Shown here piece after piece: positions 11,417 through 11,716 of a stretch of 41,149 bases of DNA; positions within the stretch are counted from its first letter, which is position 1, and each line of letters opens with the position of its first letter. The DNA lies in UHGV virus genome UHGV-0455966; one strand, 5' to 3'. The notes beneath the pieces were generated by a model that searched no databases, was not told where the DNA came from, and worked only from the letters and a program-made list of their open reading frames with translations. The position numbers were made by a program, and so were the translations under genes. This DNA is from a virus.

Positions 11417-11716
11417 GTGAGAAAGTTAAGCCGACTTGAAAAATATCACATGAATAAGGTTTCAATGCGCAGTCCGTCAAAGATTGTCGCCGTTACTCCT
11501 GCGGCGATAGAGATCGAAAAACGCGCGATTGAAAGAGAGAAAAAAGGGCAATTCCGCATTGCCGCTCACCTTTGGCTTCAGTGTATGGATGTTGCTTCTG
11601 GTGATGTTGAACGTGCAAGGATCGCGGTTCGCAGGGACCAATGTATCACAAAAGGTAACGGCCTTCGCCGTGGCGACTATAGCGGCATAGGATGTTGTGG
11701 GGTGGTTTATGACTAA
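11417..11716 (+). CDS. possible PerC/Pch-like regulator
   Basis: ...KRAIEREKKGQFRIAAHLWLQCMDVASGDVERARIAVRRDQC resembles Pch pattern ...ELEAKGLWRRAASRWLDVM...ERE...RRR.YC by eye; true start may be 11450. Confidence 0.4.
   Translation: MRKLSRLEKYHMNKVSMRSPSKIVAVTPAAIEIEKRAIEREKKGQFRIAAHLWLQCMDVASGDVERARIAVRRDQCITKGNGLRRGDYSGIGCCGVVYD

What the first reader, a model, noticed from the sequence alone, without database searches (positions are those of the whole stretch)
11417..11716. Possible PerC/Pch-like regulator in the early-left operon
The segment KRAIEREKKGQFRIAAHLWLQCMDVASGDVERARIAVRRDQC resembles, from memory, PerC/Pch-family regulators found on enteric prophages. If correct, the phage carries a regulator able to act on host genes. 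The match is by eye only.
Basis: inference. Interest (0 to 1): 0.4.

Follow-up and report, generated by a model that had tools for sequence, protein, structure and literature searches.

The report
Phage PerC-like small regulator gene
The ORF is a real, conserved early gene of a phiV10/epsilon15-type E. coli phage. It shares a 45-57 residue helical core with the PerC/Pch virulence regulators, and databases already label it that way, so the finding is correct but ordinary, and its effect on host genes is untested.

Summary
Window 11417-11716 (+) is a 99-aa ORF containing the quoted peptide at residues 35-76.

**Similarity to PerC/Pch is real but partial**
- Pfam PerC (PF06069) scores 30.1 bits against a cutoff of 22.6.
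- BLASTP to EPEC PerC gives 40% identity over 60 aa (E 2e-10). To PchA it gives 40% over 40 aa (E 1e-6).
- A profile-profile comparison gives 94.6% probability.
- Only the N-terminal half of the Pfam model is matched (positions 5-50 of 90). Authentic PerC, PchA, PchD and PchE match it end to end at 124-153 bits.
- This protein has its own conserved about 33-residue N-terminal extension and a different C-terminal tail.

**It is already annotated**
- It is the orthologue of phiV10 gp34 and epsilon15 gp31.
- 535 of 5426 complete E. coli genomes carry it, named "PerC family transcriptional regulator".

**Context argues for a phage role**
- The gene holds a fixed position in the early-left operon of Uetakevirus phages: RecT, AlpA-like, 38-aa membrane protein, this gene. 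The hosts include genera not known to carry LEE.
- Repressor operators bracket the operon's promoter.
- I therefore favour a phage-development role as a non-HTH modulator that relieves gene silencing or binds a partner protein.
- Activation of host virulence genes is possible but unsupported. Other PerC-family members activate LEE1, repress it, or have little effect on it.

A minor correction: the RefSeq and phiV10 start codons probably truncate the protein.

The parts
11417..11716 (+). PerC-domain protein gene, 99 aa (orthologue of epsilon15 gp31, phiV10 gp34, Tyrion gp32). GTG start in a GTGA overlap with the upstream stop; TAA stop.
   Evidence: ORF. Pfam PerC 30.1 bits. PHROG 868 matched full length, 5.7e-62. 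98.6% DNA identity to phiV10 over 11000-12600. Start-codon comparison. Purifying selection.
11519..11656 (+). Conserved PerC/ANR-like helical core (residues 35-80), the only part shared with PerC/Pch. Residues invariant with PerC, PchA, PchD and PchE: A37, E41, G44, R47, A49, W53, M57, R66, R73, C76.
   Evidence: Pfam match residues 35-80 to profile 5-50 of 90. Alignment A2. hhalign. AF2 helices 28-43, 46-59 and 63-82, with block-mean pLDDT 85-92 over residues 31-80.
11417..11518 (+). Subfamily-specific N-terminal extension (residues 1-34, predicted helix 6-18, conserved KYH motif). Absent from PerC/Pch.
   Evidence: Alignments A1 and A3. Codons 2-16 pS 0.667 against pN 0.139. AF2 model.
11657..11713 (+). 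Subfamily-specific C-terminal tail (residues 81-99, NGLRRGDYSGIGCCGVVYD). It is conserved but predicted disordered, and it replaces the C-terminal half of PerC/Pch.
   Evidence: Nearly invariant N81, Y88, G90, G95, V96 and Y98 in A3. pLDDT below 50 for residues 88-99. No match to Pfam profile positions 51-90.
11304..11420 (+). 38-aa membrane protein gene whose TGA stop overlaps the GTG start of the PerC-like gene (GTGA), suggesting translational coupling.
   Evidence: PHROG 17484 'membrane protein', 2.6e-27. Sequence. Same arrangement in phiV10, Tyrion and epsilon15.
11059..11307 (+). AlpA-family small DNA-binding protein (probable excisionase/regulator), always two genes upstream.
   Evidence: Pfam Phage_AlpA 24.2 bits against cutoff 21. 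PHROG 66. Synteny.
11709..12359 (+). MT-A70 family adenine DNA methyltransferase. Its ATG overlaps the end of the PerC-like gene (ATGACTAA).
   Evidence: Pfam MT-A70 78.6 bits. Annotated start in phiV10 and RefSeq. Sequence.
12356..12550 (+). DUF1382 protein gene, the last gene of the operon.
   Evidence: Pfam DUF1382 101.9 bits.
12554..13804 (-). Tyrosine integrase, convergent with the operon.
   Evidence: Pfam Phage_integrase and Arm-DNA-bind_3. In lysogens it sits next to guaA.
9310..11009 (+). Recombination genes of the same operon: a PDDEXK exonuclease (9310-10131) and RecT (10128-11009).
   Evidence: Pfam DUF3799 and RecT.
8560..8636 (+). Probable early-left promoter (TTGACA-17-AATTAT, 8594-8622) bracketed by two TTACC-N5-GGTAA palindromes (8560-8574 and 8622-8636), which are the presumed repressor operators.
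   Evidence: Promoter scan. The palindrome occurs 10 times against 0.02 expected. The same motif is annotated as repressor-binding sites at the equivalent place in epsilon15.
7918..8542 (+). HTH_3 repressor-like gene (7918-8502) followed by a terminator-like hairpin (8523-8542), just upstream of the early-left promoter.
   Evidence: Pfam HTH_3 38.5 bits. Terminator scan. phiV10 annotates a putative repressor plus terminator here.

Best explanation
The ORF encodes a 99-aa protein of about 11 kDa. It is the Uetakevirus (epsilon15 gp31 / phiV10 gp34) branch of the PerC superfamily.

Shown:
- It is a real gene under purifying selection.
- It shares with PerC/Pch a helical core of about 45-57 residues, with the motif E-x-x-G-x-[FY]-R-x-A-A-x-x-W...M...R...R-x-x-C.
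- It has a conserved N-terminal helix and a conserved C-terminal tail of its own, and it lacks the C-terminal half of PerC/Pch.
- It occupies a fixed position in the phage's early-left operon and overlaps both neighbouring genes.

Inferred:
- It is made early after infection or induction and not in the stable lysogen, because repressor operators bracket the operon's promoter.
- It has no HTH-type DNA-binding fold. I therefore expect it to work like its relatives, as a small helical modulator of nucleoprotein complexes. It could displace H-NS/StpA-type silencers from AT-rich promoters, as shown for Pch. Or it could bind another regulator directly, as ANR proteins do.
- Its primary clients would be the phage's own genes or host factors that limit phage development. 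Any effect on host virulence loci would be secondary and host-dependent.
For: - Homology of the core: Pfam PerC 30.1 bits against GA 22.6; BLASTP to PerC E 2e-10 and to PchA E 1e-6; ten invariant core residues shared with PerC, PchA, PchD and PchE; hhalign 94.6%.
- Real gene, long form: dN/dS about 0.1 against epsilon15, including codons 2-16; an ATG at the equivalent start in epsilon15 and Tyrion; the internal Met codons are not conserved.
- Core phage gene: the same order RecT, AlpA, 38-aa ORF, PerC-like gene in phiV10, Tyrion, epsilon15 and in Kosakonia and Klebsiella prophages, while the genes downstream vary.
- Native composition: GC content is like the neighbouring genes, so there is no AT-rich moron signature.
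- Repressor control: a promoter-like site at 8594-8622 is flanked by TTACC-N5-GGTAA operators. No + strand promoter-like or terminator-like site lies between it and the gene.
- Fold: four helices with a high-confidence core. The nearest solved folds are MIT/TPR-type protein-binding helical bundles and none is an HTH. Phage 'ANR family' 60-aa proteins superpose on the core at 1.1-1.7 A.
- ANR resemblance: ANR_neg_reg 23.6 bits, E 3.4e-5.
- Mechanistic precedent: Pch relieves H-NS/StpA/Hha silencing and lacks a known DNA-binding motif (PMC4764244). ANR proteins bind AraC-type regulators and H-NS (PMC4983702, PMC5570504).
Against: - No experiment on this subfamily was found in the searchable literature.
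- All fold-search hits are statistically insignificant (E >= 0.1).
- The promoter and operator assignment rests on consensus scans and on analogy with the epsilon15 annotation, not on transcript data.
- The missing C-terminal half of PerC/Pch, and the added N- and C-terminal elements, could mean a different activity altogether.
- Fukui et al. could not co-precipitate H-NS with PchA (PMC4764244), so even the family's own mechanism is not settled.
Confidence: 0.5

Rival explanations
1. First reader's reading. The protein is a functional equivalent of PerC/PchABC: a lysogenic-conversion regulator that activates host virulence or other host genes (for example LEE1/ler in attaching-effacing E. coli, which phiV10-type phages can infect).
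For: - The core homology to PerC and PchA is significant.
- phiV10 and the O157 typing phages that carry this gene infect O157:H7.
- PerC and PchA-C are interchangeable in activating LEE1 (PMC5293775, citing Porter 2005).
- Group 1 pch genes are induced by the SOS response (PMC6265319), so prophage-induction-linked expression does not rule out an effect on the host.
Against: - Only Pfam profile positions 5-50 of 90 are matched, whereas all characterised PerC/Pch proteins match full length.
- PchD and PchE, which are much closer to PerC than this protein is, have little effect on LEE (PMC6265319).
- A PICI PerC-like protein represses LEE1 (PMC11773190).
- The gene is a conserved core gene in phages of genera that, to my knowledge, lack LEE.
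- The operon's promoter carries repressor operators.
- ZX5 lysogeny did not change adhesion, biofilm or virulence (PMC9782041).
Confidence: 0.15
2. The protein is functionally an ANR-type (AraC negative regulator, Aar-like) anti-activator. It would be a three-helix protein that oligomerises and binds an AraC/XylS-type activator and/or H-NS directly, and so lowers host gene expression rather than raising it.
For: - NCBIfam ANR_neg_reg scores 23.6 bits, E 3.4e-5, covering 43 of the model's 54 positions. That is higher than for PerC or PchA/D/E, which score 13.6-18.2 bits.
- BFVD phage 'ANR family' proteins superpose on the core with TM (target) 0.80-0.87 and rmsd 1.1-1.7 A.
- A PerC-annotated PICI protein behaves as a repressor, and its authors noted the ANR resemblance (PMC11773190).
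Against: - The score is below NCBIfam's curated cutoff of 32, whereas the Pfam PerC cutoff is passed.
- No AraC-family partner gene is annotated in the essentially identical prophage. ANR genes typically accompany one (PMC4983702).
- The Foldseek E-values are not significant.
Confidence: 0.2
3. The protein is an accessory factor of the integration/excision module. It would work with the adjacent AlpA-like protein and the integrase, for example to control int/xis expression or excision directionality.
For: - The gene is invariantly close to the AlpA-family gene and near the integrase in every locus examined.
- AlpA and PerC-family genes also co-occur in Gram-negative PICIs (PMC11773190).
- PerC biases the fim invertible switch, which tyrosine recombinases operate (PMC5293775).
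Against: The evidence is purely positional. The same operon also holds recombination and methylase genes. There is no sequence similarity to known recombination directionality factors.
Confidence: 0.1
4. The similarity is a chance match of a short helical, alanine/arginine-rich segment, or the ORF is not a gene.
For: The matched stretch is short (45-60 aa). Helical low-complexity segments can give spurious hits: the repeat protein P0129 scored 68 bits purely through tandem repetition.
Against: - Three independent methods give significant scores.
- Ten invariant residues are shared across five proteins.
- The ORF shows strong purifying selection.
- It is conserved across many enterobacterial genera.
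Confidence: 0.02

Closest known systems
PerC (EPEC pEAF plasmid) and PchA/B/C (EHEC O157 prophages): Pfam PF06069, group 1 PerC homologues
   Same: - Small proteins of about 10 kDa encoded on mobile elements.
- A shared N-terminal helical core: 40% identity over 40-60 aa, with invariant A37, E41, G44, R47, A49, W53, M57, R66, R73 and C76.
- No recognisable HTH.
   Different: - This protein lacks the C-terminal half of the family model (positions 51-90, including the conserved G and R of the C-terminal segment in alignment A4).
- It scores 30 bits, against 143-149 bits for PerC and PchA.
- It has an extra conserved N-terminal segment of about 33 aa and its own conserved C-terminal tail.
- It sits inside a repressor-controlled early operon of an intact phage. 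pchA, by contrast, lies on the opposite strand beside IS629 copies and the lysis genes of cryptic prophage Sp4.
- Activation of LEE1 is untested.
PchD, PchE and PICI-encoded PerC-like proteins (e.g. EcCIMP1_025): groups 2 and 3 of the family
   Same: - Members of the same Pfam family on phage-related elements, often near AlpA-type genes.
- They show that family membership does not imply LEE activation: PchD and PchE have little effect on LEE, PchE represses csgD and curli, and EcCIMP1_025 represses LEE1.
   Different: These proteins still match the Pfam model full length (124-153 bits). Identity to the window protein is only about 27% in the global alignment.
ANR family (Aar, Cnr, Rnr): NCBIfam NF033650
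   Same: A predicted three-helix fold of about 55 residues. The sequence match is sub-threshold but non-trivial (23.6 bits, E 3.4e-5). The predicted structure superposes closely on phage ANR proteins.
   Different: - The score is below the curated cutoff of 32.
- The protein is about 35 residues longer than typical ANRs (63 aa for Aar).
- No cognate AraC-family gene is nearby.
- ANRs act as negative regulators by protein-protein binding, which is not tested here.
epsilon15 gp31, phiV10 gp34, Tyrion gp32 (PHROG 868 'transcriptional activator')
   Same: Direct orthologues with the same length, the same genomic position and the same overlaps with neighbouring genes. The protein is identical to phiV10's, and 84% and 69% identical to Salmonella and Citrobacter homologues that resemble the epsilon15 and Tyrion proteins.
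   Different: Nothing substantive. The annotated start codons differ between records: 83, 88, 99 and 101 aa.

Membership tests
PerC family (Pfam PF06069) | Score above the Pfam gathering threshold | tested here: met
   30.1 bits against 22.6, E 6e-07.
PerC family (Pfam PF06069) | Conserved N-terminal core motif shared by PerC, PchA, PchD and PchE | tested here: met
   Ten invariant positions in the five-protein alignment. BLASTP E 2e-10 and 1e-6. hhalign 94.6%.
PerC family (Pfam PF06069) | Full-length domain, including the C-terminal half (profile positions 51-90) | tested here: not met
   Only profile positions 5-50 of 90 are aligned. PerC, PchA, PchD and PchE align across 1-89 or 6-89 at 124-153 bits. 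The tail of residues 81-99 is unrelated.
PerC family (Pfam PF06069) | Small protein of about 10 kDa encoded on a plasmid, prophage or PICI | tested here: met
   99 aa in a Uetakevirus phage genome. The family description is in PMC5293775.
PerC/Pch group 1 (functional class) | Activates the LEE1 (ler) promoter by relieving H-NS/StpA/Hha silencing | not testable with these tools
   This needs reporter assays. The literature shows members that activate, have little effect on, or repress LEE1 (PMC4764244, PMC6265319, PMC11773190).
ANR family (NCBIfam NF033650) | Score above the curated cutoff | tested here: not met
   23.6 bits against a cutoff of 32.
ANR family (NCBIfam NF033650) | Fold of three conserved alpha-helices, under 10 kDa | tested here: inconclusive
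   AF2 predicts three core helices (28-43, 46-59, 63-82) plus an extra N-terminal helix. Phage ANR models superpose at rmsd 1.1-1.7 A, but with E 0.1-1. The protein is about 11 kDa.
ANR family (NCBIfam NF033650) | Accompanies and binds an AraC/XylS-family activator | tested here: not met
   No AraC-family gene is annotated in the 20 kb on either side of the identical gene in the E. coli Combat2C1 prophage. Binding itself cannot be tested here.
Uetakevirus gp31 orthologue group (PHROG 868) | Full-length match and conserved synteny (RecT, AlpA, 38-aa ORF, this gene) | tested here: met
   PHROG 868 matched 1-99 of 99, E 5.7e-62. Synteny.

The most novel reading that the evidence does not exclude
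The Uetakevirus gp31 proteins may be a distinct class bridging PerC and ANR. They would combine a three-helix PerC/ANR core with a lineage-specific N-terminal helix and a conserved C-terminal peptide. Their native job would be to serve the phage early in development, for example by countering H-NS-type silencing of phage DNA or by neutralising a host regulator. On this reading the 'virulence regulator' activities of PerC/Pch are exaptations of an ancestral phage early function.
Probability: 0.25. Interest if true: 0.45.

Novelty: already known. Interest (0 to 1): 0.15.

Why it matters
The finding adds little. The gene has been labelled PerC-like since the phiV10 genome was annotated, and about 10% of complete E. 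coli genomes carry it under that name.

What may be useful is the caution attached to the label:
- This subfamily has only the N-terminal core of PerC.
- It is a conserved early phage gene, not a moron.
- It cannot be assumed to activate virulence genes.

Testing it would show what PerC-type modules do for the phages and PICIs that carry them, which remains an open question for the whole family. It would also show whether induction of common guaA-integrated prophages perturbs host regulation.

The start-codon correction (99 aa, not 83 or 88) matters to anyone cloning the gene.

Tried and rejected
- **PDB sequence search:** nothing at E < 0.9, so no solved relative by sequence.
- **Foldseek against PDB and BFVD:** no hit with E <= 0.001. 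The MIT/TPR and phage ANR neighbours are suggestive only. The afdb50 library was unavailable.
- **Whole-library phmmer:** only 35 representative clusters at E <= 1e-3, so a single sequence does not reach PerC/Pch itself. The 1693-aa hit P0129 is a tandem-repeat artefact.
- **Literature searches** for phiV10 plus PerC, for epsilon15 gp31, and for 'PerC family transcriptional regulator' found no experiment on this subfamily. Porter et al. 2005 is not held.
- **The ZX5 paper** studies the repressor, anti-repressor and integrase, not this gene.
- **Moron hypothesis:** I considered that the gene might be an AT-rich moron with its own promoter. I rejected this because GC content matches the neighbours and no + strand promoter-like site lies between 8622 and the gene.
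- **Minus-strand ORFs** overlapping the gene (11477-11725 and 11446-11559) were judged spurious, given the plus-frame purifying selection.

Full report
**Observation**

Window 11417-11716 (+) is an open reading frame of 99 codons that starts at a GTG and ends at a TAA.

**Is the PerC/Pch resemblance real?**

Yes. The evidence comes from several independent comparisons:
- Pfam's PerC model (PF06069) is matched at 30.1 bits, E 6e-07, above the curated cutoff of 22.6.
- I retrieved authentic reference proteins from annotated genomes. These were PerC of EPEC E2348/69 plasmid pMAR2, and PchA, PchD and PchE of O157:H7 Sakai.
- BLASTP gives 24/60 identities with PerC (E 2e-10) and 16/40 with PchA (E 1e-6).
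- A five-protein alignment has ten invariant positions, all in the core: A37, E41, G44, R47, A49, W53, M57, R66, R73 and C76.
- A profile of 47 orthologues compared with a profile of the four reference proteins gives hhalign probability 94.6%, E 6.9e-8, over 57 columns.

**How far does membership go?**

Only the N-terminal half of the family model is present, profile positions 5-50 of 90. PerC, PchA, PchD and PchE all match the model end to end at 124-153 bits.

The window protein instead has two elements of its own:
- An N-terminal segment of about 33 residues, conserved across its orthologues (xKLxRLEKYH..VS.R...K.VAVTPAA).
- A short conserved C-terminal tail (NGLRRGxYSGI..GVVYD), unrelated to the C-terminal half of PerC/Pch.

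It is thus a separate branch that shares a domain with PerC/Pch rather than a full-length member.

The same core gives a sub-threshold match to NCBIfam's ANR (AraC negative regulator) model, at 23.6 bits against a cutoff of 32. PerC, PchA, PchD and PchE also hit that model, more weakly, at 13.6-18.2 bits. The PerC-ANR resemblance is therefore family-wide, and others have already noted it (PMC11773190).

**Already annotated**

The 1.6 kb around the gene is 98.6% identical to phage phiV10. There the gene (PhiV10p34) has been annotated as a 'transcriptional activator ... PF06069 (PerC transcriptional activator family)'.

The gene is present in 535 of 5426 complete E. coli genomes, nearly always once and on the chromosome. 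PGAP names it 'PerC family transcriptional regulator'. In those genomes it lies in a prophage integrated next to guaA.

PHROG 868 ('transcriptional activator') matches over the full 99 residues at 5.7e-62. The window as a whole is a mosaic Uetakevirus genome related to phiV10, vB_EcoP_ZX5 and others.

**Start codon**

Public records disagree on the length: 83 aa in PGAP, 88 aa in phiV10, 99 aa in epsilon15 gp31 and 101 aa in Tyrion gp32.
- In epsilon15 and Tyrion the equivalent start is an ATG that overlaps the stop of the upstream 38-aa ORF (ATGA).
- In the window the same position is a GTG in a GTGA overlap.
- The internal Met codons used by PGAP and by the phiV10 annotation are Leu/Gln or Leu/Lys in the relatives.
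- Codons 2-16 show 6 synonymous changes over 9 synonymous sites, against 5 non-synonymous changes over 36 sites (pS 0.667, pN 0.139).

Over the whole gene pS is 0.68 and pN is 0.15, so it is a real gene under purifying selection.

**Context**

The gene order is:
- an HTH_3 repressor-like gene (7918-8502) with a terminator-like hairpin (8523-8542);
- a promoter-like site (TTGACA-17-AATTAT, 8594-8622);
- small ORFs;
- a PDDEXK exonuclease (9310-10131);
- RecT (10128-11009);
- an AlpA-family protein (11059-11307);
- a 38-aa membrane protein (11304-11420);
- the PerC-like gene;
- an MT-A70 methyltransferase (11709-12359, whose ATG overlaps the PerC-like stop as ATGACTAA);
- a DUF1382 gene (12356-12550);
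- a convergent integrase (12554-13804).

Two TTACC-N5-GGTAA palindromes bracket the promoter-like site, at 8560 and 8622. This palindrome occurs ten times in the window against 0.02 expected. The same motif is annotated as the repressor-binding sites at the equivalent position in epsilon15. No + strand promoter-like or terminator-like site lies between this promoter and the gene.

The 'early-left operon' description is therefore supported. The gene is probably silent in stable lysogens and expressed after infection or induction.

The order RecT, AlpA, 38-aa ORF, PerC-like gene is the same in phiV10, Tyrion, epsilon15 and in prophages of Kosakonia and Klebsiella, whereas the genes downstream vary. 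GC content does not differ from the neighbours.

These are the properties of a core phage gene. They are not those of an accessory 'moron' such as pchA, which lies on the opposite strand beside IS629 copies and the lysis genes of a cryptic prophage.

**Structure**

AlphaFold2 with a 47-sequence alignment gives mean pLDDT 76.6.
- It predicts helices at residues 6-18, 28-43, 46-59 and 63-82.
- The block-mean pLDDT is 85-92 over residues 31-80, and the tail (88-99) is disordered.
- No solved structure is related by sequence.
- Foldseek finds nothing significant. The nearest PDB folds are MIT/TPR-like helical protein-binding modules (E >= 0.3).
- In BFVD the closest superpositions are phage proteins of about 60 aa. 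One is named 'ANR family transcriptional regulator' (rmsd 1.1 A over 57 columns, TM on target 0.87, but E 0.8).
- Nothing resembling an HTH appears among the hits.

**What is known of the relatives**
- Pch lacks homology to known DNA-binding proteins. It binds AT-rich regions that mostly lie within H-NS-bound regions. It activates LEE1 only when the H-NS/StpA/Hha complex is repressing it, and it displaces H-NS in vitro (PMC4764244).
- PerC also affects nitrate-respiration genes and the fim switch (PMC5293775).
- Among the O157 homologues, only group 1 (PchA/B/C) activates LEE. PchD and PchE have little effect on LEE, and PchE represses csgD and curli (PMC6265319).
- A PICI-encoded PerC-family protein represses LEE1 in C. 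rodentium, and its authors suggest it may be ANR-like (PMC11773190).
- ANR proteins are three-helix proteins that bind AraC-type activators and H-NS (PMC4983702, PMC5570504).
- Lysogeny by vB_EcoP_ZX5, which carries this gene at 97.9% regional identity, did not change growth, biofilm, HeLa adhesion or virulence of its host (PMC9782041).

**Interpretation**

The functional part, a regulator acting on host genes, is not supported by what can be checked, and several points argue against it as the primary role:
- the domain is partial;
- direction of regulation is not predictable within the family;
- the gene is conserved in phages of hosts that, to my knowledge, lack LEE;
- the operon is repressor-controlled;
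- a related lysogen shows no phenotype.

My best explanation, at confidence 0.5, is a small non-HTH helical modulator made early in phage development. It would act on nucleoprotein or regulator complexes, either Pch-like by counter-silencing or ANR-like by binding a partner, mainly for the phage's benefit.

The rivals are:
- a true PerC/Pch-like host activator (0.15);
- an ANR-type anti-activator (0.2);
- an accessory of the int/xis module (0.1);
- a chance match (0.02).

**Novelty and interest**

The gene and its PerC label are already in public annotation, so I rate the novelty 'already known' and the interest low. Three modest additions come out of this work:
- the domain-level caveat on the PerC label;
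- the start-codon correction;
- the argument that this branch is a core early phage function.

No experiment on this branch was found in the searchable literature.

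Noticed in passing
window 1668, 5455, 5517, 7848, 8560, 8622, 18701, 20151, 21202, 39249 (each 15 bp): The palindrome TTACC-N5-GGTAA occurs ten times against 0.02 expected. 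Two pairs lie exactly 62 bp apart (5455/5517 and 8560/8622). The same motif is annotated as repressor-binding sites in epsilon15. This suggests a phage-wide operator set that controls several promoters, not only the immunity region.
   Followed up: partly
window 11417-11465; L001:20049-20300; L002:3451-3717: RefSeq/PGAP (83 aa) and the phiV10 record (88 aa) probably start this gene too far downstream. Comparative evidence favours the 99-aa GTG start used in epsilon15 and Tyrion.
   Followed up: yes
window 11304-11420 (+): A conserved 38-aa membrane-protein ORF (PHROG 17484, category 'moron, auxiliary metabolic gene and host takeover') overlaps the PerC-like gene start (GTGA). PGAP does not annotate it in the E. 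coli prophage, although it is conserved in phiV10, Tyrion and epsilon15.
   Followed up: partly
window 9310-11009 (+): The recombination module is mosaic. Here it is a 273-aa DUF3799/PDDEXK exonuclease plus a 293-aa RecT, as in the Klebsiella and Kosakonia prophages. phiV10 has a fused RecE-RecT of 1761 nt, and the Combat2C1 prophage has a YqaJ-type exonuclease plus a 340-aa RecT.
   Followed up: no
window 39586-39662 (+): The phage carries a tRNA-Arg(TCT) gene. The related guaA prophage also has a tRNA-Arg.
   Followed up: no
protein P0129: A 1693-aa metagenomic 'protein' scored 68 bits against the query through many tandem repeats of a unit of about 53 aa, each with 22-24% identity. This is an artefact of repetition, not a relative.
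   Followed up: yes
proteins P0141, P0142, P0145, P0146: Proteins of 139-149 aa carry the same half-length PerC core (profile positions 5-50) in their C-terminal half, behind a different N-terminal region of about 45-75 aa. The core therefore appears to be a mobile module with variable N-terminal additions.
   Followed up: no
L005:17943-20146 (O157 Sakai SpLE1): pchD lies immediately downstream of ibrA and ybdM (an ibrB-like gene) in SpLE1, a context quite different from pchA (Sp4, beside the lysis genes) and pchE (Sp7, a PICI-like element, after an ssb gene).
   Followed up: no
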